Of a DNA stretch of 64,000 bases, positions 7,035-62,722 are shown piece by piece. Position numbers and translations under genes: made by a program. Each line of letters begins with the position of its first letter. The stretch's first letter is position 1. The DNA is from Lama glama. Lineage: Eukaryota. Where the stretch lies: positions 9,672,001-9,736,000 of the forward strand of contig CM052848.1 in assembly GCA_028534125.1 (NCBI GenBank), read 5' to 3'. A model generated the notes under the pieces. The model was not told where the DNA came from. It saw only the letters and a program-made list of their open reading frames with translations, and did no database searches.

Positions 7035-7242
7035 GGGGAGGGCATAGCTCAGTGGTGGAGTGTGTGCTTAACATGCACAAGGTCCTAGGTTCAATCCCCA
7101 GCACCTCCATTTAAAAAAATTAAAAATAAACTGAATTACCTCCTCACAAGGTCCTGGGTCCACTCCTCAGTCCCTCCATTAAAACAATTTTTTTAAAATA
7201 AACCTAATTACCTCCTCCCCCCAAAAAAATATTTTAAAAGAG
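7035..7242 (+). mobile_element. Camelid tRNA-Ala-derived SINE (Vic-1 type) with duplicated 3' half
   Basis: GGGGAGGGCATAGCTCAGTGG A-box head, GGTTCAATCCC B-box, A-rich tail; 15-bp TSD AGAAAGAGATGCAAA at 7018-7032 and 7243-7257. Confidence 0.9.
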
Positions 7243-13828: not shown

Positions 13829-13918
13829 CAGCAATGCCGTCTTTGCATCATGCACAGGTCGTGGACGTGTGGCAGATGCAGAACTCGTACGAGAGCATGT
13901 GTCAGTGGTTGTCCATAG

Positions 13919-16900
13919 ATAATTTTCAGCACAGAGACACTGTGCATGTTTGGTTAAGTGTACACCTAAGTATTTCATTTTCTTTGGAGTGATTTTAGGT
14001 GGTCTTGTATTTTTTATTTCTGTTTCCACTTGTTCATGGTCAGTCTATAGAAACGCAATCATTTTTGTTTGTTGATTTTGTGCCTTGTGACCTTACTGAA
14101 TTCACTTATAAGTTCTAGAAGGTTTTTCATGGAATCCTGGGGAAATTTTATAGAGGCAATCATATCATCTATAAATGCAGTTTTATTTCTTCCTTTCCAA
14201 AATGTTTGCTGTTTATTTCTTGTTTTTGCCTTATCTCAAAACGTGCAGAACTTCCAGTACATGTTGAGAAAGAGTGGTAAGAATAGGTATCATCGTCTTG
14301 TTTCTGATTTTAGAGGGAAAGCATTTCCTTATTAAGTATGATATTAGTCATAATTTTTTGGTAGAAACTTTATCAAGTTGAGGTGATTCCCCTCGATCCC
14401 TGACTTACTGAGATTTTTATTATGAATGGTGGTGGATTTTGTCAAATGCTTTTTCGTATGTCAAGTGGGATGATTATATGCTATTTCTATGTTAGCTTAT
14501 TGAAGTGGAGCCCAACATGGAAGGATTTTTTTGAATGTTGAACCATCCTTGCATACCTGGAAGACATCCTACTGTTTTACCCATTACTGGATGAGGTTTA
14601 TTGAGGACTTTGACACCTAAGTTCATGAGAGATTTTAGTCTGTAGTTTTCTTTGTTTGTAGTATTCTTTTTCTGGTTTTAGTATTAAAGTAATACTGGCC
14701 CTCATAAAATGACTTGAGAAATGTTCCCACCTGTTCTGTTCACTAGTGGACTTACTAGTGGAGACTGAGTAAAACTGATGTTAATTCTTATTTGAATGTT
14801 TGGTAGAATTTTCCAGTGAAAACTTGTGCACCTGGAGATTTCTTTTCGGGGAGCTTTTCAATTACTAATATGATTTCTTTAATGTCTATAGGGTTATTCT
14901 AATTATAAACTTCACCTTGGTTGATGTGGTAGTTTGTGTTTTCAAAGAATTAGTCTATTTCTTCTAGCTTCAAATAATGTGAGTTTAATGTTATTCATAA
15001 TATTCTTTGGTTATCTTTTTAATGGTTGGAGGATCCACAGTGATAAACCCCATTTCATTCCTGATATGGATGATTGGTGTCTACTTTCATTTTATTTTCG
15101 TCACTCTTGCTAGAGGTTATCAATTTTTTTTTTTACTGTTTTTGAAAAACCAGCTTTCATTTTTTAAATCAATTTTTTCTATTCCTTTCCTAGTTTCAGT
15201 TTTATTAATTTACACTTCTTTCCTTTTGCTTGCTTTAGGCTTATTTTGCTCTTCTCTTTCTAGTTTCTTGAAGTAGGAACATGGATTATTGATTGGAGAA
15301 CTTCTCTAATTTAAGCCTTTAGTGCCATAAATTTTCTCACAGTATTCCATTAGCTGCATCCAACAAATGTTTCTTTGTTGTAATTTTCTTTTCATTCAGT
15401 ACTGTGAAATTTTTAAAACTTTGTCTTTAGTCTTACTCCCTGACCCATGGATTGTTTATAAATGTGGTGTTAAATTTCCACGTGTTTAGTTATTTTTATA
15501 TTGTTTTTCTGTTACTGATTTCTCATTTGATTCTATTATGGCTGGAGATCACAGTCTATGCTTTTAGTTCTTTAAAACTTGTTGAGATTTATTTTTATGT
15601 CCCATGGTATGATTTCTTGTGGTGAGTGTCCCATGGACACTGGAAAAGTATGTATTCTGCTGCTATTTGGTGGAGTGCACTGTACATGTAGATCCTACTG
15701 TTTGGTTGTGCTGTCCAGATCTTCTGTATCCTTGCTCATTTTCCATCCAGGGTTCTGTCAGTTGCCGAGAGGGGACTAATGTAAACCTCAGGTATAATTG
15801 TGGATTTCTGTTTCTTCTGTCAGTTCTATCAGTTTTTGCTTCATGTTTTTTGAGACTCGATTGTTCGGTGTATTCACCTTTAGGGTTAGGGTTGTTACAT
15901 CATCTTGATGGAGCCATTCTTTTGGCATCATGTAATATCCATCTTCATCTCTAGTAGTTTTCTTTGCTCTGAAATCTACTTTATCAGATATTAATATAGC
16001 CAGTCCTGATTTTTTTTAAATTAATGTTTGCATGGCGTATCTTTTCCCAATCTTTTACTTCCAGCTTACCTGTATCATTGGATTTGAGATGAGTTTTCTG
16101 TAAAAGGCATAAAACTGCATCTTATTTTAAAATCAAGTCTGTCAATTGGAGCATTTATACTGTTTACATTTAAGGTAACTATTGATATTTTAGTGTTTAA
16201 GTCTGACGTATTATTACTAGGTTTCTGTTTGTTTCTTTTTCTTTTCATTCCTCTGTTTCACATTTCTTGACTTCCTGCAGGCTGCTTGAGCAATTTTAGG
16301 ATTCCATTGTGATTGATTTATAGTGTTTTTGAGTCTATTTCTTAGTATAGTTTTTGCAGTGTTTACTCTGGATATCATAATACACATCTGTGACTTGTCA
16401 CAGTCTACTTATATCGATATTTTATCTTCAGCTGAGGTGTGGAAAAGAAATCTCAGTTTCATTTAAGTCCCTTTACCTTCCCCATTTTTAAATATCATAT
16501 ATCATTGTCTTGAGTATCAGGGGGTGCCACAATTTTTGTTTCAGTTTTCAAATATGATTTCCAAAGCTCGTGAAGAAAAGGAGAGGCTATGGTGTGTATT
16601 CATATTTCTTTTCCTTTCATTGTTCCTTTTTCCTCCCTGATACTCTAGGATTCCTTTTTTCATTTCCCTTCTGTTTGAAGAACTTCCTTTAGCCAGTTTT
16701 TTTGGTGTAGGTCTGGTGGCAGTAAATCCTTTCAGTTTTTCTTTGTTTAAGAATATTTTTATTTCCTCTTCATTCCTGAAGGATAATTTTGCCAGATACA
16801 GAATTCACGGTTGGCAGTTCTTCTTTCCCAGAACATGAAAAATGTGCCGCTTCCTTCTGGCTTCCGTGATTTCATGCTAGAGATCCAGTGCCATTAAAAT

Positions 16901-17313
16901 TACCATCCCCTGTAGGGCATGTGTTGTTTCTCTTTGACTGATTTCAAGATTTGTTTTCTTTTACTTCAGTTTTAGAAGTTCGGTTACCATGTGTTTTGGT
17001 GTGGACGCTTTGGATTTATACTGTTTGGGGTTCATGCTGCTTCCTGCATCTGCAGGTTTGCGTCTTCTGCCAATTCAACACGTCTTCAGCCATTGTTTCT
17101 TCAGATACTCTCCGAGCCGTGCCCTCTTTCTTCTCTCCTTCTGAGACTCCAATGATGTGAAGGTTGTGTCTTTTCTCACCATTGCACCATTCTCTGTGTC
17201 TCCGGTTTTTTGTTTTTTGTTTTTTGTTTTGTCTGTTTTCTCTGTTTTTCAGATTGGGTGCATTCTATAATATGTCCACAAATTCACTAATTGTTATCCT
17301 CTGTCATCTCCAC
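13919..17313 (-). mobile_element. Old L1 (L1M4/L1MC-type), ORF1 to mid-ORF2 remnant
   Basis: Minus-strand KMKYLGVHLTKHAQCLCAENY matches the L1 ORF2 KYLGxxLTK motif; ~3.4 kb T-rich antisense L1 texture; truncated at both ends. Confidence 0.88.
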
Positions 17314-17327
17314 TCTCCCTTTCTCCC

Positions 17328-17391
17328 TATATGTGTATGCATGGAGAGAGACAGCCTATTGTTCTGACTTCCTGGAGAATCCTGGCTAATA
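17328..17391 (+). mobile_element. MLT2 LTR terminal piece (inverted relative to the rest of the LTR)
   Basis: CCTATTGTTCTGACTTCCTGGAGAATCCTGGCTAATA resembles the MLT2 3' terminus. Confidence 0.7.
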
Positions 17392-17469
17392 GCTGGAGAA
17401 GGACGGCCTTGAACTAGGGTCTGATGGAAGGAGGGATGCGGTATTGAATGTGACACAACACGGAGTCTG

Positions 17470-17685
17470 GAAAGGGAGATTATTTATATCTGTTATGTCA
17501 TCTAAATGATGATAGAGGCTGGCAAGTCCAAAATCTGCAGGATGGGCCTGCAGGCTGGCGCCCAGGGCAGCTGTGGTTCAGGTCCAAAGGCCATCTGTCT
17601 GCGGAATTCCCTCTTCCTCAGGGGAGATTGGGTTTTTGTTCTATTCAGATCCGCCACCGATTGGATGAGGCCCCTTTGCATGGTC
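17470..17685 (-). mobile_element. MLT2 (ERVL) LTR body
   Basis: GAGGCTGGCAAGTCCAAAATCTGCAGG...GATTGGATGAGGCCC; similar to the MLT2 at 53409-53898. Confidence 0.8.
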
Positions 17686-18349
17686 GGCCCGGCGGCCACC
17701 CTCCCACCCTGGGTGACATGTGTCAGTTTTTTGCTCTCATTCTTTCTGTCCACGTACGAGGCATTCTCAGGATTCCCTTGTTCCTATTCAGCTGGGGGTC
17801 CTCAAGGTGGCCTGTATCGTACAGGACCTGGATTTAGAGGCTGCTCGTCCCACTGGGCCGAGTTATCTTTTAAAAACAGAATTCTGAGATCATATGTTTA
17901 ATGTATGGAAGGCTCAGAGATCGACATTCGTCCCTAAGTCAGCTGTGACAGTAGCCATCCCTACACAAAACATTTCCCCTTTTAAACATCTCAGGCAAGT
18001 TCAAAATAGCTTTACACAATGCTAGTGCTTCTCCCGGAGATTAATTTTTTCTTCTTTTTTCCCCTAATCCTTGACCTACTTCTTCCCTCTGCTCAATATA
18101 CCTGATGCGTAATAATGACTTCAGAGGGGGAAGCACCGGAGGAGGCCAGGGTGAAGGGATGCCTTCAGAGCGTGGCTCCGGGGCCCTGGAGCCCAGCCAG
18201 TGTCGCTGTCGGGGCAGAATCGGGGTGCCCATCTGAGTCCGGGTTTGCCCACATCCCTACGGCTGCGCTGTGCCCCTGTCAATATTTGGCGTGTTGCCTA
18301 GCAGGGGCTCATGTGCGGCAGGCGGAGAGGCTGACCCACACGTGCAGAC

Positions 18350-18392
18350 TCACACACACATACTCACATGCACACACTTACACACACACACA
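18350..18392. repeat. Degenerate (CA)n
   Basis: Read directly from the sequence. Confidence 0.8.
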
Positions 18393-19746
18393 TTCAGAAA
18401 CCCACCCAAGCTGTCTGGTGCTGTAAGAAGCAGGCTTGAGGGTCTGGAACAGCAGCTCCCGTCTAAAGATGTTCTTCTAAAACAGATTCCATTTATAATA
18501 TGATCTGTGCTGGGGGGCACAGGGCCGCTTCTGTCTCCGGAGCGGTAAGCCCGAACCCTGGAAGGTGCGGGCAGGCGGGGAGCAGTCGGACAGGTCACTC
18601 GGCTCACACAGCGCTCTCCGGCCCGTGTCCTGCGGAAACCGCTGCTGCCTCGGCCCCAGCACGTGCTGGCCTCTGTGAACTGGAGAGGAAGGAGGTGCCA
18701 ACGCACAGGCTTCTGTCTTTTCTGAGCTCCTTCTCAGAGAAGGGGTGTGGGGAAAGAGATAGAGGACAGAGAGGAAAAGACATGATAGAGAAGTGACGGG
18801 GAAAGAGAGAGAGGTAGCTCCCAGCTCTGGGAAGCAGCAGAGCTCAAGACTCTCATAAGTGGTGGCCCGCTCCCTGGAAACGCTCTGGCAAGCGGGCAGG
18901 ACCTCCATGGAGAAAGACAGTGGTTCCCCTCAGGGGCTTGACCACAGACCCCGCAGCTCCCGGCACGGGCTCATCCTGTGTGGCTTGGAAGCAGCAGAGC
19001 CCCCTTCAGTGTACCCGAGCTTGTGACAGCGAGCAGGACGGGGCAGTCCTGGGCCTGAAGGGATGTGGGCTCCCCCCTACTTCCTGGCCCTCCACAGGCT
19101 TCCTGGTTCCTGGGGACTCCTGGGGGTGGGGCTGAGGGGCTTGGATAGCGGCTGAAGGTAAATTTGAGGCTTAGCAGAATGGGGCCCCAGACTCAGATTT
19201 CGCAGCATGAGGTAGGCTTCCTCGCATCTCTGCACCTGTCCTGTGGGCCTGGGCCTCTGGGACTCTCTTCCTGACCCAAGACTCCTGACTCCTCCACAGT
19301 AGGGAGGGTTATGTGGCCCTCAGCTGTCACAGCCAGTTCAAGAAGAATGACCCCTAGCTAGCCTTTAACTGTCTGAAAACCCAAGGAATTTGGTGCCTCT
19401 TTTCTGGTTCACTGGGCACAGCAGGTCTCATCCAAACAGAGCAAGATATCACCTGCCGTGGTCCCCATCCCGCGGGTGCTCTGTGCAGCGGGTACAGGAC
19501 AGCACAGACTAGAACTGTGTCCCTCCCCACAGCTGTGCCTGTGCCTGACCTCCTGGCCTGACTTCAGGTCCCTGGGGTCGGGAGACCAAGAGCACATCTC
19601 TGCTGGTCCTTTGGGGGTTTTATTTGTGTCACTGAGGAGCTAGTACACAGGAGGGATTGACTGGCAGAGAACAGCAAAGCACACGCTGAAAAAGATCGAC
19701 AGGCATGTCCCCAGAGCCAGTGGTCTCCTTGCCAAGAAATGGGAAC

Positions 19747-20110
19747 TGTTTAGTTTGCTCGGGCTGCCAAAACAAGGCACTATAGACTGGGGGCTTCAAT
19801 AACAAATCAGTGTTCTTACAGTACTGGAGGCTGGAGGTCCAAGATCAAGGTGGCAGCAGGGTTAGTTTCTTTCGAGGCCTCTCTCTTTGGCTTGTAGATG
19901 GCCATCTACCTGCTCACATGACGCTCTCCCTTCTGTGTGTTTGTGTCCAAATTTCCAGTCTTACTGGATAGGCCCCACCCCCATGACCCCACTTTAACTT
20001 GATTATCTCTGTAAAGGCCAAGTAAGGTCACATCTGAGGTGCTGGTCGGAGGCGGGGATTGGGGCTTGAACATGTGCATTTGGGTGGGAGGCGCAATTCA
20101 TCCAGTTACA
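19747..20110 (-). mobile_element. MLT1A/B-type MaLR solo LTR
   Basis: TG...CA ends; GGAGGCTGGAGGTCCAAGATCAAGGTG; GGCTTGTAGATGGCC. Confidence 0.85.
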
Positions 20111-21142
20111 GCAGCACCGATTTAAACCCCCAGGGGCTCCACAGTTTCATTTGCTTCACAGAGAAAGAATCCATGCCTTCTAGAAAGCTCTGCCTTTTTC
20201 ATTCCTTCTGAGTTTGGTCTGTTGTATTATTAGGACAAACGCTAGAAAAAGAGGGAGTGAATCCCATATGTACATGTATTTAGTGGACTTAGAAGACACC
20301 AAATAGCCCCAACCATGCTGTTTTCCAGCCACAGATGAGGATGGTTCCTGCTATCTGACTCTCCTGGAGGGATTTCTTTGGTCCACAGATCAATGTCTCA
20401 ACCCCTTATCCCCTCAAGACCACTCTTAGCATTAAATCACCCCTGTTCCCCTACCATCTCCACCCCTTTGGGACATCCCTTTCCAAAAGGGAGACCCCAT
20501 CCCACCATGGGAGCTAGCCCACGTAAGGACACATGCCCTTCATGCCCAACTGGCTTATACTTTTTCTTTGCAGCCTTTTATCTCAGCATCAGAGCAGCGC
20601 TCTACTTTGAAAACACTTTCAGACCCATTTGATCTTCGCGTCTAGGGCAGGGGGAAGGAAGCACATTTATTGATCTTGCTGCACGTTTCAGGCTTATTGT
20701 TAGTGGTTTTACATCTGTGGTTTCTTTAATCATCACATCAACCTATGGCATGGTTGTGCATCAGGAAAAAAGATGTTATTATGACATGGAAACCCGCCAA
20801 CCCTGGCCTTGCCCCACTGATGCGCTGCACCAAGAGAGGGTGGGGTGGAGACCAGAGAGGCCTGAATATCAGGTTGCACTGAGCTACAGAGCAAAGGGCG
20901 CAGAGATCTCAGGAGGAGGAAAATAGTCCTGAAGGCGGGGAGAGGGGACCTAGCGTGGGGAAGTGGGGAGGGGCGAGAGCGGGTACAACTCTGGGGCGTT
21001 TTAGAAAGTTGTGCTGTGTACTGCTGGCGGCCTTCCCTCCTTGCTGTGCCATAAAAGGCTTTCATGATGTCTCAGGAGGTGTCAGAGAGCTGGGCCTCGG
21101 CTTGTCACGTTTAGGGATAGTTCTTGTGAGCATCATTTCATA

Positions 21143-21225
21143 AAAGAGGAAACTGGGGCTCAGAGTGATTGAGCCACAGCTCATCAGAGACAGACCCACA
21201 GATTAAATTCAGGTTTGTCTGATGC
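21143..21225 (-). mobile_element. MIR fragment
   Basis: GAGGAAACTGGGGCTCAGAG core. Confidence 0.6.
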
Positions 21226-22209
21226 AATCTGGTATATAGTTGACACCCCATTGATGCTTGTGTGGGTCTGTTTATTTTTCCCTATTTTGGCCAAATAGAA
21301 AAGAGAGGCACTGCTTAGAATTTGACTTTCCCCTGTCCCACCAGCTTTCTAAAGTCATCAGAGGTGAGCAGGACCATTGCCCTGCTCTGCATGTGCCACC
21401 GGCTCTTGCCCCTGGCTGTGCCATGCTTTGCACACAAAACTCATTACTTCCTGGTGTCTCTGCCACGCCACCCTCGCCCCCACCTCAGTGGGCAAAGAGG
21501 ACCTTCTTCAATCTCAAGAAGGATGTAACCCATTGACTTCATGCTGTAGAATTCCCATACTGTTACTTTCTACCTGTTCACATTTCTGAGTGTTTCCCAC
21601 ATTTTTTTTAAATCAACAACATATAATAAAACTCATTTTACCAGGTTCTGTCTCCAGGGAGAAGACTGGAAGCTTTGATTTCCTCTCACAACTTGGTCAG
21701 GAAAAACAAGTCCCAGAGCCAGCATTCTTGAACTTCAGTGGTTATGATTCCCACTCCTTATTGGGTTTTCAAACCAGATGGTCAGGTTAAAAAACAAAAC
21801 AAAATGGCTTTTTATCCCTGAATCCAAAGAGGGTGAATTTCATATTCAGAGCCCTGTGGGAACAGAGCCTTCCTGGATAGCTGACGAGGCCTCCCACACA
21901 AACGGATTAGGCTGGAGTCCATGCTGTTACATGCTGCCTCCAGACCCTCCGCCCCTCCTTCCTCTCTCAGGTATCATGGGGAGAAAGAAAACTGCCACCA
22001 TGGAGCAGGTTCTGTCCCCTCCCAGCAGAGCCAGACTCAGGAAACAGCAAATTATAAGCTATCATTTCTAGGAGGCTTGGGCGATGCCCTCCCCAAGCTA
22101 AAGCAGTTCCAGAATTTCCACCATCCAAGTTTATTTCCCGGTTTGATGGATTATCTCCCATCAAAGTGCAAATGTACTTTAGAATCGTATTGCTTGTGCA
22201 CAGAGAGAA

Positions 22210-22415
22210 CTAGCGGCTAGGCGGCCAGGTTTTAGAATGAGACTTGGTCTCGTCCTGGCTCTTCCATCTCCTGCTGTGTGACCTGGCACATAATACCTAA
22301 CCTCTCTGAGTGTGGGTGTGCTCCTGTGCACACTGGGGATAATTAGAAGCTGCATCTTAAAGATAATGGACTTAAAGCCATGAGGACATAATACATGCTG
22401 GTTAAGTACTAATTG
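22210..22415 (+). mobile_element. MIR SINE
   Basis: GCTGTGTGACCTGG...AACCTCTCTGAG core. Confidence 0.65.
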
Positions 22416-22494
22416 CATCCCATGTATTTTGATATATTATGTTATTTTTATTCAATTTTATGTATTTTTATATTTCCTTTGAAATCATTGAGAT

Positions 22495-22652
22495 TCAGAG
22501 CCTAGCCTCTGAAGCTAGACTGTCAGGATTTGAATCCCAGCTCTGCCACTTGTTAGCTGTGTGACTCTGGGTAATTGAATTGACCACTCTGTGCCTTAGT
22601 CTCCTCATCTGTAAAGTGGGATCAGAGTTGTACTTCGCTCATAGGGTCACTG
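22495..22652 (+). mobile_element. MIR SINE
   Basis: TTTGAATCCCAGCTCTGCCACTTGTTAGCTGTGTGAC...CTCATCTGTAAAGTGGG. Confidence 0.85.
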
Positions 22653-24134
22653 ACTCCTTAATGTGGAGCACATTTTCCCTCTTTGTAGTTAAGTTTTAAA
22701 GTGAACGTTTCTTTAATGTAAATTTTAGATGGAAGAATATTCCCTTATCTCTTTCAGATTTTGATGTCTTAGGTATCTATTTGGTATATAGTCTCCCCTC
22801 TCTCCCCCCTAAAATATCCAGTGCTGTTTACCTGCTGAAATGACTCAGCCTGTTAAGTCATAAAACCTAGTGACCTTTCCCAGAACAAGATCACAGTATT
22901 TCTGAGATTGGACAGCCTTCCAGCTGCATGCTGGAGTCACATGGCACTTCCTGTAAATTTTAATTTAATGCCTAGAGGGATAGAGCAGCACATATTGCCC
23001 TTACCCACCACCAGACCCTGCAGCAATGCCTGGGTGCCACTGTGATCATTTCCATGTGCTCTTCCCCACTCATTGCCTGTCCCAAAGACATGCATCCGAC
23101 TGTGAAAAAACGACAAAAGCCGCCAAGATCAGAGTTTAGTGGGACAGATTTGGTCCAGTGCTATTTTTTCTTCAAACTGTGCCCCTTGGATCTATGGAAT
23201 TCATGTGATGAACTTTAGGGGTTCTTGAAAATGAAGCCTGATTGTGACGGGCAGGGCTCGGGTGTCTCATTTTATCACCACCAAACTCTCCTCCGGAGCC
23301 CAATCTGTAAAGTAGAGAAAGTTTGTCCTTGGTGCATTCATGTCCACACACCCCCCTGACCTGGGCAGGACGAGCTTTAGGGTGTCTGCCCCATCTATAG
23401 TCCTCTTCTGCAGGTTCCTCCCATGGGAGCCGCCATGTTGGAACCATGATCACATGACCTCGAGGCCACAACCAATTGGACAAAGGCATAGCTGTAGCTG
23501 ATAGCTGATACCTGATTGGTGGGCAGCCACAGGGGCACCAGAGGAGAGACCTGCTGGGAGCTGAATGACTGTAATGGCGAAAGGCTTCTCAGGAACCCTT
23601 CTATGAGACAGTGACCACCTTAAAAGGCCCTCCAGTTCCTGCACTGCTTTCCTGTCTCTGGGAGGCACAGTTCTAAAAATATTTCTGGGGTCCCATTGAA
23701 GCTTGTGTATGCAATCTGCATTCTGGCTTCCTTTATTCCAGAATGATCCTTGTAATAAACACCTGGGCTTACTGAGAGACCTGAGTGTAACTCAGTTTCT
23801 TGACACCCACCTAAGACCAACACACCTGTTGTCTCTCCTTGTGGGCACTTCTGCCCTTAGCCTGTGGTCTTTACCTAAGTGCCATGCACAGGCCAGCTGT
23901 CAACCACTCCCAGTCTGTGGTCACTTGAGATTCAACAAGGGACCCCATCTTTCAAGCCCAGTAACCTTCCATCACTGCATTAGAAACTGTCTCTTCTGCC
24001 CCCTCCAGGTCTAGCCCTGACCCTGTAGAGGGGTGATCGAGCAGTCCTGTTTGATGATTTTAGCCTTTTCTTTCCCCAAAGTTCAAAGTTGTGTTGTTCC
24101 ATAAATCACTTCCTCCCATTTTGTGCTTCAGCTT

Positions 24135-24250
24135 CCCCATGTAGAGATGAGGGACCTTGAGGCACAGAAAGGTGAAGTAACTTTCCCCAGAGTGCACAGC
24201 TGGGAGGCCACAGAGCTGAGACTTGAACGTGAAGAGCCTGACTTTCATCT
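24135..24250 (-). mobile_element. MIR SINE
   Basis: GATGAGG...TGAGGCACAGAAAGGTGAAGTAACTT...CACAGCT. Confidence 0.75.
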
Positions 24251-24692
24251 GCAGGGGCAGAGCCCTCTGCATCCATCCGTGTGGTCCCCAGGCACGTTGG
24301 AAATCAGCACCAGAGAGTTCAGGTCTCCTCAGAGAGAAGAGAGAGGGTGAGCCCTTAGCTCAAAGTCGAAAAAATCTGTTCCCAAACATTATCTAATGGC
24401 TGGTATTCCATCACTTTAAAACCATTTTCCTAAGGTGAAACCTTTATGTTGTTTCCAAATTTTCCACATTTCAGACAGGATCACCTTTGTGCTTCCATCC
24501 TGGTCTGCCGATCCCTCTCACTCCTTCGAGGTGGGTGACCCCGGGTCCATCCCATGAGGGGGGTGACTTTCCCTCCAGACTTCCTGCAGCCTCTCTGCGT
24601 CACCCGTGGGCGTGGCCCACCGCCTCCCTGTGACCGCTACCTGCTAGCAGGATGCCCTGTGGAGATTCAGCAGCAGGCTTTACCTCTAGGTG

Positions 24693-24880
24693 ATGGTTAC
24701 CAGCCAGAGTACAGGCCGCCTGGTTAAATGTGATTTTCTGATAAACAAGCAGTGATTTTTAGTATAAGTATATCCCGAATATTACACAGGATATACTTAC
24801 ACTCAAAATTTCCCTCATGTATGTGAAATTCACATTTAACTGGGCACCCTGTGTTTTTATTTGCTCAATCCAACAATTCT
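24693..24880 (-). mobile_element. MER53 palindromic non-autonomous DNA transposon
   Basis: Arms GTTAAATGTGA...AGTATAAGTATATCC / GGATATACTTACACT...TCACATTTAAC form a ~190-bp palindrome. Confidence 0.85.
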
Positions 24881-25519
24881 CTTTCAGAGGACTTTCTTCC
24901 TCCTGCAGTTTTAACCAGCTGAGCACTTGATTTCATTCTTGTGGCAGGCAGGATATGACTGGCTTTCCCTCCATTTCAAGTGGAGCAGTGGGGAGCTGGG
25001 GCATCTCAAGAATTAAAAGGATTCATTGCTCACACCTTTTCCACTCTGATCTTCCTTGGCCTCAGATTTGCTGCTGTTTCCTCACCTCACCCCTGGTCCT
25101 GGCTCTGGGCCCAGATGGGTGGCTTTCTATCCCTCGGAGTTGGGAGCCTGTGTTTGCTTCCATCAGGGGTTGTTCATTGACTTCTTCCAGGCCCACCTGC
25201 CTCCCGGGTCAGAGCGAGGTGGGTGAGGAGAAATGCATTAACCCTCTGCCCCTGAGGCTCCGACTGGTGGCACCTCAACTTGAGAGTCACAGCCCGTGCT
25301 GGTGAAGGTCAGAGCCAGGCTAGGGCAGTTATTCTGGAATCAGTGGAACAGCTGGCCTTGAAGAATGGAGGTGTCAGCATAAATGGGGGAGGGCGGAGAG
25401 AGGACAGCGAGGCCCATTTGGTAGCCTATCACGGTTCCCCGGAAGTACAGAAGGGCCCAGAGCCCTCCCTAAGCCACCTGGCATCGTGCACGAGCTGTGT
25501 CACCTGAATACCCACTACA

Positions 25520-25635
25520 TCCATTAAGTTCAGCACATCTTTATTGACCACCTACTATGTGCCGAGTACCCTACCAGGCTCATGTTATAAAGATGAGAAA
25601 GATGCAGTCCCTGCCTTCAAAGAGAGACATACGAA
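25520..25635 (-). mobile_element. L2 LINE 3' end
   Basis: TTTATTGACCACCTACTATGTGCC...GTCCCTGCCTTCAA. Confidence 0.75.
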
Positions 25636-26864
25636 GGGGACATTTCAGCCCCATGAGGTGGATGCTTCAAGAGTGACATGCCCGGAGCATCCCAGGAGCC
25701 TCGGACACATACCTGGGCTGTCCTGCCTGCCTCGGGGAGTGACATCTCCCCACCACCGACCCCAGGAAGGAGTCAATACCTGTCATTTCAAACCATGATA
25801 TGGAGGGGAAATACTTTTTTTGAAAGCCTGAATTTTCAGGAAATAACTTAGGCCAGTCTCCCCAGGGGCACCTTTTGCCTGTGGAAACCTGCTTGTTCAA
25901 GTGCTCATTACACCCAAGCACCCACCCTGTCCCCGGCTGCCTTCCTGTGCGTGTCCCTCCCTCTCTTCACCAGCAGACTCGTCTGCCTGGGCTGGTGAGG
26001 GCTAACGGCTGGGCAGTGAAGGGTCTGATTTTGACATACTGGTTCTGCTCACAGCCGCCAAGAACATTCAGAGTGGGGCCAGGTGGGAGAGGAAAACATG
26101 TTTTTTCATTATTTTACCTATAAGATTCATTTGAAGTGAGGGAAATAGGTCTGTTGCCCTAACTAGCTAGTTAGATGAGAACAAATTCCTCATTAATTCT
26201 AAGTACGTCAAATGGAGAAGATGGTTAAAGTGAGAAAGGCTGATGACAGCCGTTTCTGGAAACAGAGCAAGGCACACACAGGAAACGGGATGGGTCTCCT
26301 GTAGGCTCTCAGCATAAACAGAGCTGCCCTCACCAGCTCTGCAAGGAAGGTGGGCTCTGGAGGGCCACGGGGCAGGGGTACCAGGGGTTCTCCCTCACTC
26401 GGCAGGGTCCAGTGCTGCCTGGTCAGCGGGTGATTACTACACGGTGATTAGGACTTGGCTCCGGTGAAACAGGAACGAGAGACGACATACTGCAGGATCT
26501 TGGCATCCGCCTAAGCGGCCTTGGGAGGCGTAGGTGTCAATAAGGGAGCCTGAGCCACTTAGTGATCACATCCGGCCATCCCCGGGCCGGTTGCAGAGCT
26601 GCTGGCCTGTGTTAACTCATTTGTCTTCTCGCTACTCTGTAAAGCAGGCAGGTCTGTGGTGTGTTCAGGAAGTGGATGCTGCTTGGTTCCTCAGGGCAGC
26701 TTAGAAGTCCAGCCCCTGGTGGCATCCTCAGAGTGCTGTGTGGCTTAGAGGGTGGCCCTCAGTCCCTGCGAAAGGGGCAAGAAAGGTGCGAGGAGGGCAT
26801 ATCAGCAGGAGAGGGGCCAGGGTCAGAGGAAAGCTGGGACTGTAGATTCCAGCCTCTTTTCCAG

Positions 26865-27292
26865 CCCCTTCGGAGGAAGACCTCCAGTCTTCCCCACTCT
26901 CAGTCCAGACGATTCAGTCAGGAGTGGGCATGTGACCCAGACCAGACCAATCAGAACAGTCCATGCTCCTGGCCATGTGACCCAAGCTGAACCAATCAGA
27001 ACCCATCTAGGACTTCTCTGGAGATCTTGGAAAAGAGATGCTTTTTATGGGGTTGCTAAGCTGTTGGAATATAAGTTACTTCACCATCATTTGGGAAGAG
27101 TCTGGGAATAAAACCAATGCAAAAGAAGGCAGGGCTGAAATGAAGAGAGATGAACTCCTGACAACATGGTTTTAGTTCCTGGGTCAAGCTATGCCTGAAA
27201 CCCTTGGGTTTCAGTTACCTGAGCCAATGCTACATTTTTCCTTAATAAGCTTGGGTTCGATTTCTATAATTTACAACCAAAAAACTTCTTTT
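26865..27292 (+). mobile_element. MLT1K/L-type MaLR LTR
   Basis: GGGCATGTGACCC...CCAATCAGA twice; AAGCTATGCCTGAA; TCAGTTACCTGAGCCAAT. Confidence 0.75.
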
Positions 27293-27584
27293 CAATAATC
27301 TACATATATAATCATGGACACCTTGTATTTTGGAGATTTAATTTCCTCACAGGTAAAACGGAAATAATAATGCCCCACCTGTAGTTAATGAAGAGACCCA
27401 GATATATGACCAAAGGTATAATATTTCCTTGGCCACATTAACCATTTTTGCCCTAGTTTCCTCTTGTGAAGCCAACAAGACTGTTCAACCTCCTGGGAAT
27501 GGGAGCAATTTAGATAATGGATATGCAAAGGAATCTGTACACTTCTATGGAAATATTTTTCCCCAAGGGTAATGACTGCACTTT

Positions 27585-29471
27585 TAAGAAACTTTAAAAT
27601 CTGAGATGATGTTAGATTCACGTGCACTGATAAGAAGCTATACAGAGAGACTCCACATCCTTCTCCCAGGTTCTCCCAGTGGTAACATCTTACATAACTA
27701 TAGCATAATGATATTACAGTGAGAAAATTGGCATTGATGCAATACAATGAACTTGCTCAAATTTCACTGCTTTGACGTGCACAGTTGTGTGTGTTTGTGT
27801 GTACTTAGTGCTATGCAGTGTGTAGATTTGCATGACTACCACCACAGTCAGACTACAGAACAGTGCATCATAAGGACGTTTTTGACCCATCACCTCTCCT
27901 CCCGCCAGACTCCTAGCAGCCACTGATCTGTTCCATCTCTCTAATTTGATAATTTCAAGAATATTCTATAAATAGAATAATTATAACATGTAACCTTTTG
28001 AGATCAGCTCCTTTTACCCAATGTAACTCTGCTAAGATCCATCCAACTTGTTTATCAGTATTTCTTCCTTTTTATTGCTGAGTAGTACTCCATGGTATGG
28101 GTGTGCCACGGTTTACTTAATCATTCACATATTGAAGGACATCTGAATTTTTCCCAGTTTTGTGCCCTTAACAAATAAAGCTGCTATGAATATTTTGTGT
28201 GCAAGTTTTTTGTGACCATAGGCTTTCATTTCTCGGGGATAAATGCCCAAGATTATGACTGCTGGATAGTATGTTAAGTCCATTTTCAGTTTTAAAAGAA
28301 ATTGCCAAATTATTTTCCAAAATGGCTGAATCACTTTACATTCTGCTAGCAGGGTATAAGAGATCCAATTTCTCTGCATTCTTACCAGCATTTGATGTTA
28401 CTACTACTATATTTTATTTTAGCCATTCTGGCAGGTGTGTGATGATACCTCATTGTATTTTTTTAAATAGAGGTCCTGGGAATGAAAACCAGGACTTCAT
28501 GCATGCTAAGTGTCTACACTGAGCTATACCCACCCCCATTGTAGCTTTAATTGACATTTTTTTCTAGTGGCTAATGATGCTGAATATTTTTTCATGTGCT
28601 TATTTGCCATCTGTATATTCTCTTCAGTGAAATATCTGTGCATGTCTTTTACCATTTTTGTCCGTCTTCTAATTAGATTCTTGAGTTTTAAGAGTTGTTA
28701 TATAGTCAGATATTCATCCTTAGTCAAGTTTGTGATTTGCAAATCTTTTCTCCCAGTCTGTAGCTTGTTTTTTCATCCCTTAAACACGAGCTGTCACAGA
28801 GCAAAGGTTTTTCATTTTGATGAGGTCCAATTTGTCAGTTTTCCCTTTCGTGCATCGTGCTTTTGGTGTCAAGTTAAGACCTCTTTGCATAGTTCTAGTT
28901 CCTGAAGATTTTCTTCTGTTTTCTAAAAGTTCAGAGTTTTGCATATTGCTTCAAAAATCCATGATCCATTTTGAGTTAATTTTGTATAAAGTGTGAGGTT
29001 TGGGTCACTTTTCATTTTTTTGACCTACAAATGTCCAGTTGCTCCAGCATGATTTGTCGAAAAGTCTGTCTTCTATTGAATTGCCTTTGCATCTTGTCAA
29101 AAATTCGTTAGCATATTTGTGGGTCTGTTTCTGAGTTCACTGTTGTTCTGTGTCTCTCCCTCTGCCACTGCCACACTTTCTTGATCACTGTACTTACATA
29201 CAAGCCTTAATAACGGGTAGAAGGATTCCTTCCACTTTATTCTTTGTCAGGATGATTTTAGCTATTCTGGGGCCTGTGCTTTACCATATGAAACTTAGAA
29301 TAAGATTGTCTTAGTGGTCTCATCTACCTTTCTGGGGAAACCTTGCTTTGATTTTGAGAGCAATTGCCTTAAACCTATAAATCAAGTTAGAGAGAATTGA
29401 CATCTTTACTATATTGACTGTTCCAATCCATGACCACAGTATGGCTTCCCATAAATTTAGGTCTCCTGTGA
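27585..29471 (-). mobile_element. Old L1 (L1MC-like) 3' UTR and ORF2 C-terminal remnant
   Basis: Minus-strand peptides MQRNWISYTLLAECKVIQPFWK...ILGIYPREMK and GDLNLWEAILWSWIGTVNIVKMSIL match L1 ORF2. Confidence 0.9.
28458..28536 (-). mobile_element. Vic-1-type SINE nested in L1
   Basis: Antisense ...CATGCTAAG...CACTGAGCTATACCC; TSD CATTGTA at 28451-28457 and 28537-28543. Confidence 0.85.
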
Positions 29472-29748
29472 ACTTATTTACAAAACAGAAACAGATTCAC
29501 AGACAGATTCACAGACAGGTTGGTTACCAGGGAGGAAAGGGATAAACTGGGAGTTCGAGATTTGCAGATACACACTACTATATGTAAAATAGATAAACAT
29601 ATAGCACAGGGAACTATATTCAATATCTTATAGTAACCTATAATGAAAAGGAATATATGTATGTATATGGATGACTGAAACATCATGCTGTACACCAGAA
29701 ATTGACACAACATTACAAACTGACTATATATCAATTAAAAAGAAAAAA
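29469..29748 (+). mobile_element. Young artiodactyl/camelid L1 3' end
   Basis: GAACTTATTTACAAAACAGAAAC...ATAGCACAGGGAACTATATTC...A-tail; 12-bp internal tandem ACAGATTCACAG; no TSD found. Confidence 0.88.
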
Positions 29749-30390
29749 CTCTGGAAACTTCTTTCTCTAAGTTTAGAACAGCAGAAAGAGCAAAGAGCGT
29801 AGGAAACACTTCAGGAGAACGTGCTGCTTCAATGCCACAGAGTGAGGGGGAGTTTACTTGCAGTGAGAAGTGGGCCTTGATGTCTCTGGGCTCAACGTGG
29901 TGGCGGGGGTCAGCATGGGGGGCCAAGGCCCAGGCTGCCTGTGCTGAGCACGGACCCCTCTTAACAGGCGCTCTGGATGGCCATGTGAATTAAGTGTAAT
30001 GAGAGCGTGTCTGCAGAAATGTGCCCCTGGGAAATCCCTGTGAACCCTCACATACAACACTTCCAGAGAAACTAGACTTAGGTTTAAGCTGAGAACACTT
30101 ACCCTGGGTTAAGACCCTGGGCTTCCATAATTATTCTATTTTAGGCATAGACTGATCACCATCATGCTAGGAAGTGAAATCCATCTTCTCTAGCTCAGTT
30201 TTCTGAGCATGAGCTACCTTTTTGGTTTCCTGAAAAAAAAAATCTTAGGACCAGCTCAAAACCACTAAAAAAATGACACATTTATGGGGGCGAGGTGGGG
30301 ATGTTTCTTCCTGTCTTAAGGGAATTTCTTAGAGTCATAGAATCTCAGATTTGGAAGTTGCTTTAAAGACCGTCTAGTCTAGATGAGATG

Positions 30391-31948: not shown

Positions 31949-31996
31949 TGCGTCAGGAAAAGCACTTCCGGCAGCCCGTAGCTTCTGCCCCCGCCC
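31949..31996 (-). promoter_or_regulatory. CRE-like + ETS/GABP + GC-box cluster
   Basis: TGCGTCA 31949-31955, CACTTCCGG 31963-31971, CCCCGCCC 31989-31996. Confidence 0.3.
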
Positions 31997-34250: not shown

Positions 34251-36720
34251 ATCCACACCAGTGGTTCCTCCACCACCCAGCCTTATGCCTTGGGACCTTC
34301 AATCCCCAGGGTCAGATCCTGCATCTCCACTCCCACAAGTATGGTCACCTAGACCTTCTCCCCTCAGGGAGCCACTGCTCTTGTTGCATTCCCTCTCTTG
34401 CTTAGCCTTCTTCCTTCCAGCCCCACCAAACCTGCCCATCTCACCACCTTCATCCCTCTTCAACACTGGTAAACCACCATCTTAGGAGAGGAAGCTCTGA
34501 GAGGCTGAGATCTACTGTACATATCTGGGTCCTCCTTCCCTGACCAGACATTACTTCTCATCCACCGCTCTATCCTAATGCCCACTTGGCCCCTGACCTC
34601 AGTCTTGGCCACTGCTCACTTTGAATAAGACCGCAGATCCTACCTTTTTGGCATGGCCGTTGTGGTTCTCTCTGTAGAGTTTTTGCATATACCCTCAGGC
34701 TCCGTCCTTCCCTGCATCCCACGCATTAACCAGCCCTCCTGCTGGGCCCCAGTCCAGCCCTGTCAGTCTGCACAGCTGGCCTCTCTGCAGGGTGGGATCA
34801 GGCAAAATCTACTCTTCTGTGTCCCACAGATCCCAATCCCTCACCCCCCCATCTAATCAGCTCCCTCAGTGGGTTCTCGTCACCCCCCACGTCATCTTTC
34901 CTTGTCTTGTTTTCCCATTCCTTCCAGCTGCTGTTCCAGTGCCTGACATTTCCCTTCCTCATGGGAGTAGCCTCCCTTCTTACTTAACTCGGGGGAAGCA
35001 TGTAGCGACCTCATAATACACATTCGTGAAAGTGGGACTGCGTGTGTGTCCGGGTGGCAGAGACCTCTGAGCAGGTGGAAGCACTGATGTGGAAGGAAGA
35101 AGCAGCCCTGCGATGCTCACTTCCGGCAGGAGCCTCCATTCCCAGGCCGGCTTCCCCAGTCCTGCTGCAGGAGCAGGAACACAGGAGCCTGGTGCTCAAA
35201 CTCAGCCTGAGACCTTGAAACCCTCATGAGAAGAATAGAGACGCTGGAACCTGGTGAGCAGGTGAGAGGTGGGCTCAGCGGCCAGCAACGTGGCATCTCA
35301 CGGACCACGATTTCTCAGGGTGTGACAGATGGGCTCCTGCTTTTGGCTCCTTGGGGAAAATGTGCGTGGGTTCCTCTGTTAGCCCTGCTCACTACAGGCT
35401 TCAACATTGTTTTCAGGTCAAGTGAGGTACGGGTCTGGGGAGAGGGCCATTCTCTTTCCTTGTGTGGAGACCCCAAGTCCTCCTGGAGCCCGGGGACAGG
35501 AAGCTCTGGGAGCATCTGGGAGCATTATTGTCATCCCTGGTGCTGCTGTTCCCACGCAGGGCACCGGAAGCCTGGCAGTGGCAGGTGCATTTCGTGACAG
35601 TGTCACCGATACTGCTTTCTAACCACAGATGAGCCACAACACAGATCAGCCAACGTGAGACCAAAATTCTGACTGTAACTTTAATGGGAAAAAACTTTAC
35701 CTTAGTTAAAGGCTTTCAAACTCATCTGTTCTCTAGGTAATTACCTGTTATATTACTACTAACTATTGTCCCGATCAAAAAATCGATGCACTGATGGGTG
35801 ATATGTTGTCTCTGTTTCCTGCCAGCCCCGTCACACCGCCCTCTTCCCTTCCTCCACATGCATCAGCAGGTTGGCCATCCGAACCCTTCTGGCATTGTTG
35901 CTTCTCTGTCTGATTCTGTTTCTGACCAACACCCCGGGGGTCACCCACTTATTCCATTTTGAGTTTACCATCCAGGGTGTCAGTTACAGACAGGTTACAG
36001 GTGAGCCTTCAGCATGGGTGACATTTTTGTTCTGTATCCTCATGACAAAAGGCATAATGTGAATTTTGCTGTGGTTTTCCTGCTGATGCCAGGGCGGGAA
36101 AGAGGGTAGAAGTATATCCGTGTTACCAGTCACAGTGCCTCCAGCAAGAACCACTGTAACACCAAAGGCAATTCATTTTCTCACCCTACTTGTGGGCGCA
36201 GGATTTGTTTATTCGTGGAGAGACAAGCACACGGTAGAATATAAAAAGTGAATGCCTGTGAGTCTGCAAAAGGATTTTAAAATGGTGATTACATTCCTAT
36301 TAAAGTTCAGTCTGGATGTCACAGCAGGAAGGCAGAACCACAGAAGTAAATGATGTAGTTTAGAAATAATAGAGCTGCCGTGGGATGAAAGGAGGATGGA
36401 CCCGGAGGGAGCGAAGGGAGGGGAGAGAAAGATGCTGGGGTGTGTGTTGGGGCGACAGGTTAGTGGAGAGACGGCGAGACCTACGGTCACCAAGGCAAGC
36501 CTAACCCCTCTGTGAGAGCCAGTTCCTGAAAGCCTTACCTTTTCTTTCAGAGAAAGAAAATTCTCTTTCAGAAAATTGTAAACCTAATGACTCTGAGGAG
36601 AGAACTGAGAATTGGGGCAGAGAGGGATTCTCTAAATTTGCAGCTGCCTCGAGGTTCTCACTGAATTTCCTAGTGACTCTCTTTCCTTTTCTGTGAAATA
36701 CAGTTTGTAATGAAGAAAAA

Positions 36721-41900: not shown

Positions 41901-41989
41901 ATTAAGGTTGAAGACTGGGTTTAAAAATAATCAGAGTTTTAAAATCTGAGTTAGATGTTTAGAGCCCTTTGTTTTTTTCTTTCTACTTT

Positions 41990-60518: not shown

Positions 60519-60716
60519 TTGTAGAATAGATAAACAAGATTACACTGTATAGCACAGGGAAATATACACAAAATGTTATGATAACTCACAGAGAAAAAAA
60601 TGTGACAATGAGTGTGTATATGTCCATGAATGACTGAAAAATTGTGCTGAACACTGGAATTTGACACAACATTGTAAAATGATTATAAATCAATAAAAAA
60701 TGTTAAAAAAAAAAAA
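60519..60716 (+). mobile_element. Young camelid L1 3' end with poly(A)
   Basis: CTGTATAGCACAGGGAAATATACAC...TTGACACAACATTGTAAAATGA...AATAAA...A12. Confidence 0.9.
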
Positions 60717-62722
60717 GTACTGTATATGAGAGCTCACCCTAAAAGGAAATAAGTAAGTATGATTATAACAAAATATATGTGGAATCTCTGTGCTGAAAAC
60801 TCTAAAATGCTGATGAAGGAAATCAAAGAAGATCTAAATATATGGAGAGACATACCATGTTCATGGATTGGCAGATTCAACATAGGAAAGATATCAATTC
60901 TCAAACTGATGTGTGGATTAGATGAAATTTCAATTAAAATTCTAGCAGAATTTTTTTATATTTGAGAAGCTGACTCTAAATCCACATAAAAGGCACAGAA
61001 ACTAGGATAGCCAAAAGAATATTGACCTTGGAAGAATCCACTTTCCAAATGTAAGACTTACTTTAAAATGACAATAATTAAGATAGTGTGGTATTGGCAG
61101 AGGGAGAGGCTCATAGATTAACAGAACAGAGAGTACAGACATTAACACAAATATGCACAATTGATTTTTGCCAAATGTGCAAAGGCAGTTCAATAGAGAA
61201 GGGATAGTATTTTCAACAAATGGTGTTGGCATTCATACCCACAGAAAAGTAAACCTCAGTCTAAACCTTCCACCTTACACAAAAATTGAATCAAGAGGGA
61301 TCATAGATCCTAATGTGAAGCATAAAACTCTAAAACTTTTCAAGGAAAACATACGAGAAGAGTTTTGCTACTTGGGGTTAGGTAAAGTGTTCTTAGACAT
61401 CACTGCAAAGGCATGATTTGTAAAAGAAAAAAGTGATAATTTGGACTTTATCAAAACTGAGAGCTTCATTCTGTGAAATACACTGTTAAAGAATAAAAAT
61501 ACAGGCTATAGACTGAGAGGAAACACTTGCAAATCACATATCTGACAAAGAACATGCATCCAAAATTGTAAAAACTGTCTTACTCAACAAACAATCCAGT
61601 GGAAAGAAAGTGGCAAAAGACTTGAACAGGAGACAGCGTATGGATGGCAAATAAATGTGTGAAAAGAGGTCCAACATCATTAGCCAGGAGAGGAATGCTA
61701 ATTAAAACTACAACAAAATACCACTATATACCTATTGGAATGTCTAAAATTAAAAACGCTAAAAACGCCAGGTCCTGGTGAGGATTTAGCAATATGGAAC
61801 TCTTACACATTGCTAATTGAAGTGTAAATTTGTGCAGCCACTCCAGAGTGACTTGGCAGTTTCTTATAAAAATAAATACACAGATATCGTCTAGCCCAGA
61901 AATCCCACTTCTAGGTATTTACCCTGGAGAAATGAAAACTTATGTTCACTCAAAAATTTGTACACAAATGTTCAGCGCTGTTCTATTTATAGTTACCCAA
62001 AACTGGAAACAATCTAACCATCCTCCAATGGGTGAAGACACAAAACAGCACATAATTCATTAAAAAGGAAGAAACTATTGGATACACATACATATATCCT
62101 GGGGGATGAATCTCAGAGGCAAGAGGAGCCAGTCTGGAAGGATTCCATACATATGATTCCATTTATATGAGATTCTTGAAAAGATAAAATTATCGTGATG
62201 GAGAACAAACAGGTGTTTGCCAGGGGCTGAGTCAGGAGGAGGGTGTGACTAGGGTGAGGCAGCACAGGGGTTTTTTGGATGGGATTGTTCTATGTCCTGA
62301 TTGTGGAGGAGGTTATACAAATCCAAAGGTATGTTTAAATTCATGGAACTGTTCATACCGAAAAAGTCTATTGTCATGTATCTTAATTTTAAAACATATT
62401 TTTAAAATCATATTTCTTTTTTTTCACGTAAGATCAGTATTTTTACTCTACTGCTTGGCATTTTATATTTGAGTATTTTACGGTAATTTTAAATGGTCTA
62501 CTAAAAAGTGCTAAGACATTTCAGTATATGACAAACCAATAGCACACCTAGAAAGATACAGAGGGTATATTTAATGGAAAAATGTTCCAAAGGTCAGTCT
62601 TTTTGATCACCTCTTCCCTTTCCCAGAATCAGCCAGTTTTGCATGATAGAGCATGTACTCATACATAGCTAAAGGTCGTATTTCTTGATGGGGTAGTTTT
62701 TTTAATCAAGAAAAAATACACA

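What the first reader, a model, noticed from the sequence alone, without database searches (positions are those of the whole stretch)
13919..29471. ~15.5-kb block appears circularly permuted: two halves of one L1 at opposite ends in swapped order
Seen: the minus-strand L1 starting at 13919 stops in ORF2 at ...KYLGVHLTKHAQCLCAENY. The minus-strand L1 ending at ~29471 starts at (T)GDLNLWEAILWSWIG. An independent L1 at ~60760-60870 reads [29 protein letters not shown], so the two ends are only ~20 nt apart in L1 coordinates. For an intact antisense L1 the 3' half should lie left of the 5' half, but here it lies on the right. The 5' half ends at a complex template-switch junction (17314-17479). 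The right boundary is filled by a young L1 3' fragment with no TSD. Inference: an ancestral C-B segment was circularised, reopened inside the L1 and reintegrated as B-C. Translocation via circular intermediates is established for the cattle KIT colour-sidedness alleles. Alternatives are a block transposition, a misassembly, or two independent L1s truncated at nearly the same point.
Basis: partly seen in the sequence, partly recalled or inferred. Interest (0 to 1): 0.78.

Follow-up and report, generated by a model that had tools for sequence, protein, structure and literature searches.

The report
Fossil L1-driven inversion, not a circle
Two pieces of an old LINE-1 jumping gene whose broken ends meet within about 19 bases sit 10 kb apart in swapped order, likely because a later LINE-1 insertion cut the chromosome and flipped a 12-kb block with no gene found in it, which would make this a fossil of a known kind of accident and not a move through circular DNA.

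Summary
The left antisense L1 piece ends at ORF2p residue 785 and the right one starts at about 792-794, a gap of about 19 nt. The circular reading is not favoured. Four junction ends can be paired three ways: order kept, circle from elsewhere, or inversion. Only the inversion pairing gives exact 8-bp overlaps at both joins (8/8 against 4/6 and 4/5; 26 of 100,000 random sets). The flipped 160-bp piece at 17314-17473 and the flank beyond the young L1 also match adjoining parts of one repeat copy at 34.6 kb on the same strand (p 0.003-0.008). So the young L1's missing duplication likely lies 12 kb away, and the middle block is likely inverted. The fold-back junction fits L1-induced end remodelling described in cell lines and tumours. 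Against: a looser test favours a decayed direct repeat that would keep the order (p=0.010). No reads or outgroup DNA could be obtained and L1 subfamilies were not assigned. Inversion of some kind about 0.70; order-keeping move or circle about 0.18. New member of a known kind.

The parts
13912..13919 (+). Last 8 bases of the left flank (A); exact reverse complement of 27544-27551; candidate remnant of the old L1's target-site duplication, or chance
   Evidence: one-end-anchored chance 0.003 for 8 bases, 0.013 for 7 if base 13919 is given to the L1
13919..17313 (-). Old L1, 5' piece (L5): C-terminal half of ORF1, spacer, ORF2 residues 1-785; no 3' end
17314..17323 (+). Left arm of the perfect 10-bp inverted repeat; starts where the L1 piece stops
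17314..17473 (+). Segment S: the start of an LTR-type repeat (about 17314-17393; MLT2-like, label recalled) lying on the strand opposite to its continuation, plus 76 bases of flank (U, 17394-17469); read as a fold-back inversion
   Evidence: sequence; inverted repeat; LTR-start identity is recalled, the in-window copy is too decayed there to confirm it
17466..17473 (+). 8 bases TCTGGAAA identical to 29750-29757; ends exactly where the 4-base overlap with the inverted-repeat arm ends; inferred far copy of the young L1's target-site duplication
   Evidence: (both ends anchored, chance 0.0004)
17470..27581 (.). Middle block C: LTR body (17519-17681 matches 53581-53750), then unique DNA and old repeats; no gene found; inferred to be inverted relative to both flanks
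27544..27581 (+). End of C: first 8 bases pair with the end of A (inverted); the whole 38 bases also match 29750-29784 at 24 of 35 aligned positions (direct), the main result against the inversion reading
27582..29471 (-). Old L1, 3' piece (L3): ORF2 from about residue 792 plus 3' UTR (L1MC-like, label recalled); carries a nested partial tRNA-type SINE at 28448-28540
29469..29748 (+). Young L1 3' end (Y), 280 bases with a 12-base A-rich tail, back to back with L3; about 3 bases at 29469-29471 can be read as either element (inferred)
29750..29899 (+). Start of right flank D: begins with the 8 bases shared with S; matches the part of the 34.6-kb repeat copy that adjoins U's match
34583..34772 (-). 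Independent old repeat copy (L2-like, label recalled) to which U and D align in order on one strand; used as a witness, not part of the event
60740..62323 (+). Third, independent old L1 used as ruler across the break

Best explanation
The two old L1 pieces are likely halves of one element, and their swapped order likely comes from an inversion set off by the later insertion of the young L1 at 29469-29748, not from a circle. Inferred ancestral order: left flank A, old L1, block C reversed, S, right flank D. Inferred steps: (1) the young L1 opened a staggered break between S and D and was copied onto D's end, leaving 8 bases on both sides (17466-17473 and 29750-29757; the match is shown, its origin inferred); (2) a second break lay inside the old L1 at ORF2 residues 785-792, and the young L1's free end was joined to the 3' half, which turned the 12-kb piece [L3 + C + S] round; (3) S's free end folded back on a 4-base match and was extended 6 bases, giving the 10-bp inverted repeat and turning S back (geometry shown, process inferred from published cases); (4) the 5' half was flipped too. 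I commit to its being flipped in the same event by a larger fold-back with some loss of DNA (about three quarters of this explanation's weight); the alternative is that it already lay flipped from twin priming when the old L1 inserted, with 13912-13919 as its old duplication. No function is proposed: it is likely a neutral scar.
For: Pairing test: order kept 4 and 6 exact bases, circle 4 and 5, inversion 8 and 8; both joins at 8 or more in 26 of 100,000 random sets. S-D overlap anchored at both ends, chance 0.0004, p=0.015 by a mismatch-tolerant score. U's best window hit is 34772-34696; D matches the adjoining part of that locus on the same strand, p=0.0026 against 5,000 random 150-mers and 0.0077 against 3,000 shuffles, while the A-end control gives p=0.60. 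It explains at once why the young L1 sits on the junction and lacks a local duplication. The 8- and 10-base duplications are still perfect, which suits the younger element: 9 of 158 private changes in Y against 33 of 87 conserved residues changed in L5 plus L3. L5 and L3 are equally decayed (46.0% and 46.3% identity to 43 spanning ORF2 pieces; 20/51 and 13/36). Published match: inversion of the reciprocal end with a TSD-like overlap of 4-15 bp, inverted stretches of 917 and 3,275 bp (10.1101/2024.12.14.628481, section 9).
Against: With long gaps allowed the best pair is C-D in direct orientation (p=0.010), above A-C (0.083) and S-D (0.145); it looks like a decayed 36-38 bp duplication around L3. 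All four ends carry a similar short motif, so the matches are not independent. Junction positions were partly chosen after seeing the matches, so 26/100,000 overstates the case; one pair of 8 or more arises in 4,697 of 100,000 sets. If the 5' half was flipped with loss of DNA, the A-C match is chance and the case rests on S-D alone. U's hit alone is not significant (16 of 100 shuffles) and U joined to D does not beat shuffles window-wide (151.5 against 152 +/- 9). No L1 endonuclease-type site (recalled motif) is visible at the young L1's inferred target. No subfamily signal links L5 and L3 (rho 0.13, p=0.42). No read or outgroup evidence.
Confidence: 0.55

Rival explanations
1. Same inversion, but made at the time the old L1 inserted: one RNA was primed twice (twin priming), its two cDNAs were joined to the ends of a second break 10 kb away. 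Either the young L1 made that second break at the same moment (two synchronous insertions), or it landed on the old junction much later.
For: The layout equals the reciprocal inversion of 10.1101/2024.08.27.596794 section 9: one bridge of two 5'-truncated L1s back to back, one bridge of an inner L1 piece whose 3' break matches the 5' break of one of them, duplications split between bridges. The 19-nt gap is close to the 14.5-bp median twin-priming deletion. It uses both 8-bp overlaps.
Against: Y looks two to three times younger than L5 and L3 (rough, and the reference proteins belong to other L1 lineages). If Y came later, its landing on the junction without a duplication is a separate rare coincidence, and perfect 8- and 10-base repeats would hardly survive from the older date.
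Confidence: 0.14
2. Order-keeping move, the first reader's family of models: the 5' half (or a circle made of C plus the L1) was cut out and re-joined so that C keeps its orientation; includes a circle from another locus, a local block move, and a split insertion of one L1 RNA at two nearby breaks.
For: Ends meet within 19 nt. Decayed direct match 27544-27581 / 29750-29784, 24 of 35, p=0.010, would be the old L1's duplication. Circular intermediates with this block flip are described for human duplications of 22-3,918 kb (PMC7450558, Results).
Against: No exact overlap at the joins these models predict (A-S 4, C-D 6, A-D 4, S-C 5). The S-D overlap and the U/D split-repeat match must both be chance. 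A duplication of 36-38 bp is long for L1 (7-20 bp in PMC2603318). No donor copy of C in the window.
Confidence: 0.18
3. Two independent old L1 insertions; the left one lost its 3' half by deletion, the right one was cut by a deletion at the young L1's insertion, and the ends meet by chance.
For: Subfamily identity untested; no correlation signal. 5' truncation and target-site deletions are common (established L1 biology).
Against: Needs a 1-in-100 fit of ends, a separate fold-back at 17314 and the S-D match all by chance; equal decay of both pieces.
Confidence: 0.08
4. Assembly artefact.
For: The scaffold has four gaps in this window; no reads could be laid.
Against: All junctions lie in gap-free sequence; joins rest on 1-10 shared bases with fold-back geometry, which assemblers do not normally create (general knowledge).
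Confidence: 0.05

Closest known systems
L1 insertion with inversion of the reciprocal end and L1-induced paracentric inversions (Mendez-Dorantes et al., bioRxiv 10.1101/2024.12.14.628481; abstract, sections 8, 9, 11 and passages read; supplements not seen)
   Same: Poly(A)-ended insertion on one end, TSD-like overlap with a distant inverted end, microhomology at the fold-back, exchange with a second break.
   Different: Somatic or cell-line events with a known reference; here an apparently fixed germline fossil without a seen ancestral allele, a likely second fold-back of 3.4 kb, and no visible endonuclease site.
Reciprocal inversion by two synchronous L1s, one twin-primed (Zumalave et al., bioRxiv 10.1101/2024.08.27.596794; abstract, section 4 part 1, sections 8 and 9 read; supplements not seen)
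   Same: Back-to-back 5'-truncated L1s at one junction, inner L1 piece with a matching break at the other, duplications split between junctions.
   Different: There both L1s are new and of one age; here the two elements appear to differ two- to three-fold in decay, and the inversion is 12 kb, not megabases.
Germline TE-insertion-mediated inversions (Chu et al. 2021, PMC8219666; passages read)
   Same: Inversion formed at the break made by a new insertion; 6 cases (5 Alu, 1 L1) in 20 long-read genomes.
   Different: Polymorphic human cases described as simple; this one is older and has three or four junctions.
Inversions with an old L1 at one breakpoint between human and chimpanzee (Lee et al. 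2008, PMC2603318; passages read)
   Same: An old L1 broken by one inversion breakpoint (41 of 252 loci there).
   Different: A simple inversion leaves the two halves on opposite strands; here both are on one strand, which needs a second flip. Not recombination between two inverted L1s.
Circular-intermediate moves (Chicote et al. 2020, PMC7450558, abstract and Results read; cattle KIT alleles: search listing only, Durkin et al. recalled)
   Same: Apparent swap of two blocks with ends that were once joined.
   Different: Defined by a donor copy elsewhere and unchanged orientation; no donor is seen and the junction overlaps point to reversal.

Membership tests
Circular-intermediate translocation or duplication | Outer ends of the block were once adjacent | tested here: met
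   ORF2p 785 and about 792-794, gap about 19 nt
Circular-intermediate translocation or duplication | Blocks keep their orientation; flanks A and D are two sides of one acceptor site | tested here: not met
   A-D share 4 bases, S-C 5; exact overlaps pair A-C inverted and S-D. Indirect test; one search gives one contrary signal
Circular-intermediate translocation or duplication | Donor locus with the original order | not testable with these tools
   No genome held; no second copy in the window
L1-insertion-mediated inversion with end fold-back | New 5'-truncated L1 with A-tail at one breakpoint | tested here: met
   29469-29748
L1-insertion-mediated inversion with end fold-back | Target-site duplication split between distant junctions | tested here: met
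   8 bases 17466-17473 = 29750-29757; p=0.145 in the loosest test
L1-insertion-mediated inversion with end fold-back | Endonuclease-type site at the primed end | tested here: not met
   No T-rich cut motif (recalled) by eye at the start of the shared 8 bases; may be decayed or a pre-existing break
L1-insertion-mediated inversion with end fold-back | Microhomology at the fold-back of the reciprocal end | tested here: met
   4 bases 17470-17473 shared by S, D and the inverted-repeat arm
L1-insertion-mediated inversion with end fold-back | Block reversed against the ancestral allele | not testable with these tools
   No runs listed, no outgroup DNA found; indirect support
Twin-primed (5'-inverted) L1 | Short deletion or duplication where the two cDNAs meet | tested here: met
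   About 19 nt missing; median 14.5 bp. A plain break would give the same
Twin-primed (5'-inverted) L1 | Target-site duplication next to the internally primed end and behind the A-tail | tested here: inconclusive
   8 exact bases but 30 bases beyond the apparent L1 end; tolerant scores p=0.058 and 0.083
Two synchronous L1 insertions | Both L1s of the same age | tested here: not met
   Y 9/158 private changes; L5+L3 33/87 conserved residues changed, 9/29 at the strictest columns; rough measure
One L1 element (L5 + L3) | Same subfamily | not testable with these tools
   No repeat library; protein proxy uninformative

The most novel reading that the evidence does not exclude
A germline-fixed product of two L1s of different lineages inserting at the same moment, one by twin priming, whose cDNA ends were cross-joined to invert 10 kb: the tumour mechanism of Zumalave et al. 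preserved in a mammalian lineage, and proof that an L1MC-like lineage (label recalled) was still active beside the younger lineage. Outgroups would then show an empty site with no old L1 at all.
Probability: 0.07. Interest if true: 0.6.

Novelty: new member of a known kind. Interest (0 to 1): 0.32.

Why it matters
If right, it is a base-level fossil of L1-induced break exchange and end fold-back, processes so far dissected in tumours and cell lines, fixed in a mammalian germline. It also gives a practical warning and a search rule: same-strand L1 halves in swapped order need not mean circular DNA, and a young L1 'without TSD' can have its duplication kilobases away. No gene was found in the block, so no effect on the animal is claimed.

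Tried and rejected
Whole genome: none held. Sequencing runs: one search with 9640-10270 and the library word PACBIO listed none (none listed, not none existing), so no reads were laid. Outgroup or L1-relative DNA: viral contigs gave no relative and one weak locus (L001, no DNA match to the window); the metagenome motif scan gave 3 loci, all chance; plasmids no match. Protein searches: 2 of 3 found nothing; the third gave 77 ORF2 pieces, of which 60 were aligned and 43 spanned the break. Pfam: 2 of 11 frames gave L1-related hits, 2 gave unrelated weak hits. Rfam: three tRNA-type SINE heads and one mir-1302-type palindrome, nothing at the junctions. Earlier findings: no look-alike or neighbour. 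Strand skew across the block is too noisy to show orientation. Window-wide search with U and D together did not beat shuffles. Simple two-break inversion rejected: it would leave the halves on opposite strands. Recombination between inverted L1s rejected: Y and L3 join at non-homologous positions. Literature: 'target site inversion' + retrotransposition gave 0 papers; four phrasings of L1- or insertion-mediated inversion gave 4 papers, 3 listed; camelid + LINE-1 + inversion + structural variant gave 1 paper, whose passages do not treat such loci; one search listed 10 of 12 papers, none on this layout by title or abstract start, one read in passages (PMC12350158).
Full report
Observation. The minus-strand L1 piece at 13919-17313 (L5) reads in L1 order from mid-ORF1 to the RT region and stops at residue 785 of human ORF2p. 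The piece at 27582-29471 (L3) aligns from residue 795 and reads L1-like a few bases further, leaving about 19 nt unaccounted for. L3 is 63.6% identical to the third L1 at 60823-61713. A 280-base young L1 3' end (Y) sits back to back with L3 and has no local flanking repeat. All junctions are in gap-free sequence. Earlier notes on this genome call it a camelid (not checked beyond the SINE and L1 types seen here).

The middle junction. A perfect 10-bp inverted repeat (17314-17323, 17470-17479) encloses 146 bases. The first 80 or so look like the start of the LTR-type repeat whose body follows at 17470 (body matches 53581-53750), but on the other strand; the name MLT2 and the identity of the start are recalled, and the second copy in the window is too decayed there to confirm it. 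I call 17314-17473 S and its non-LTR part U.

Three hypotheses, three pairings. Leaving out the L1 DNA, four ends remain: the end of the left flank A, the right end of S, the right end of block C and the start of the right flank D. Order kept (local move, split insertion, independent L1s) pairs A-S and C-D. A circle from elsewhere pairs A-D and S-C. An inversion pairs A-C (inverted) and S-D. Longest exact matches anchored at a junction were 4 and 6, 4 and 5, and 8 and 8; some pairing reached 8 at both joins in 26 of 100,000 random sets, and a single pair did in 4,697. The S-D match is anchored at both ends (chance 0.0004) and ends on the same base as the 4-base overlap with the inverted-repeat arm, which is what a 3' end folding back and being extended by 6 bases would leave. 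The A-C match is weaker: 8 bases (7 if 13919 belongs to the L1; chance 0.003 or 0.013) lying about 30 bases beyond the apparent L1 end. The end positions were partly set after seeing the matches, so these p-values are optimistic.

Independent witness. Scanning the window with U alone gave 34772-34696 as best hit (not significant alone, 16 of 100 shuffles). D's first 150 bases match the adjoining part of that locus on the same strand (p=0.0026 against 5,000 random pieces, 0.0077 against 3,000 shuffles); the reverse of A's end does not (p=0.60). U and D thus look like consecutive parts of one old repeat (L2-like, recalled). The two alignments overlap on the witness by about 45 bases of query, and the joined query did not beat shuffles window-wide, so this is support of moderate weight.

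Result against. With long gaps allowed, C-D in direct orientation scores best (p=0.010 of 19,917 random pairs; A-C 0.083; S-D 0.145): 24 of 35 positions, as a very old 36-38 bp duplication around L3 might look. In the shorter tolerant test it was not notable (p=0.63; S-D 0.015; A-C 0.058; 1,494 pairs). All four ends carry a similar short motif; the exact pairs are A-C and S-D, the pairs A-S and C-D each need a 2-base gap. This signal keeps the order-preserving models at about 0.18.

Ages. At ORF2 columns conserved in 80% of the 60 aligned pieces (15 or more residues per column), L5 changed 20 of 51, L3 13 of 36 and the third L1 12 of 43; at 90%, 3 of 13, 6 of 16 and 3 of 23. Y has 9 private changes in 158 columns shared with two other young 3' ends. 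The reference pieces are from other L1 lineages and were picked by likeness to the third L1, so decay of L5 and L3 is overestimated, but Y still looks younger by about two to three times. L5 and L3 are alike in decay (also 46.0% and 46.3% over 43 of 77 proteins). The perfect 8- and 10-base repeats suit Y's date better than the old L1's.

Mechanism. Shown: the pieces, the overlaps, the inverted repeat, the relative decay. Inferred: ancestral order A, old L1, C reversed, S, D; Y opened a staggered break between S and D; its end joined the 3' half at a second break inside the old L1, inverting about 12 kb; S folded back; the 5' half was flipped as well. Why both halves end on one strand has two answers. 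Same-event fold-back of the 3.4-kb end needs no coincidence but makes the A-C match chance. Earlier twin priming uses the A-C match and fits the 19-nt gap (median 14.5 bp) but needs the later break to hit the old inner junction. My rough weighting is three to one for the first. Total weight of all inversion models about 0.70.

Comparison. Fold-back inversion of the reciprocal end with a TSD-like overlap is described in 10.1101/2024.12.14.628481 (section 9), exchanges with L1-independent breaks in section 8. The overall layout equals the two-L1 reciprocal inversion in 10.1101/2024.08.27.596794 (section 9), whose same-age condition is not met here. Germline insertion-mediated inversions are on record (PMC8219666, passages), as are inversions breaking an old L1 (PMC2603318, passages). 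Circular-intermediate cases need a donor and unchanged orientation (PMC7450558). So it works like an L1-insertion-mediated inversion with end remodelling; formal membership stays open because the ancestral allele was not seen and no endonuclease site is visible. Supplements of the two preprints were not seen and may hold closer cases. Searches showed no report of this locus or of a fixed fossil with this layout; the library lacks most subscription journals.

Verdict. Real feature, likely mis-read as a circle; new member of a known kind; interest 0.32. One outgroup dot-plot would settle it.

Noticed in passing
window 60519-62323: The third L1 begins right behind a young L1 A-tail next to an assembly gap, by chance only about 20 codons before the same ORF2 position; an upstream ORF2-like piece lies before the gap (about 59850-60018).
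   Followed up: partly
window 7038-7257: tRNA-head SINE whose 69-base tail is duplicated in tandem; further copies at 41099 and 55663, and a partial antisense copy nested in L3 at 28448-28540.
   Followed up: no
window 24711-24852: Palindromic element with a mir-1302 Rfam hit, likely a miniature DNA transposon (recalled link); lies inside the inferred inversion.
   Followed up: no
window 38113-38828 / 49031-49720 and 43437-44049 / 47663-48181: Two pairs of related LTR-like copies, one pair inverted and one direct.
   Followed up: no
window 9640-10270, 31760-31990, 39330-39560: Stretches that look like conserved non-coding elements by eye; the last has two A/T-rich motifs like MEF2 sites (recalled). 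Conservation not shown; no look-alike for the first.
   Followed up: partly
window 27544-27581 and 29750-29784: Decayed direct similarity, 24 of 35, unexplained under the inversion model other than as chance or as likeness between the two break sites.
   Followed up: yes
window 41950-45500: T-rich, likely older antisense L1 interrupted by an LTR-like insert at about 43437-44049.
   Followed up: no
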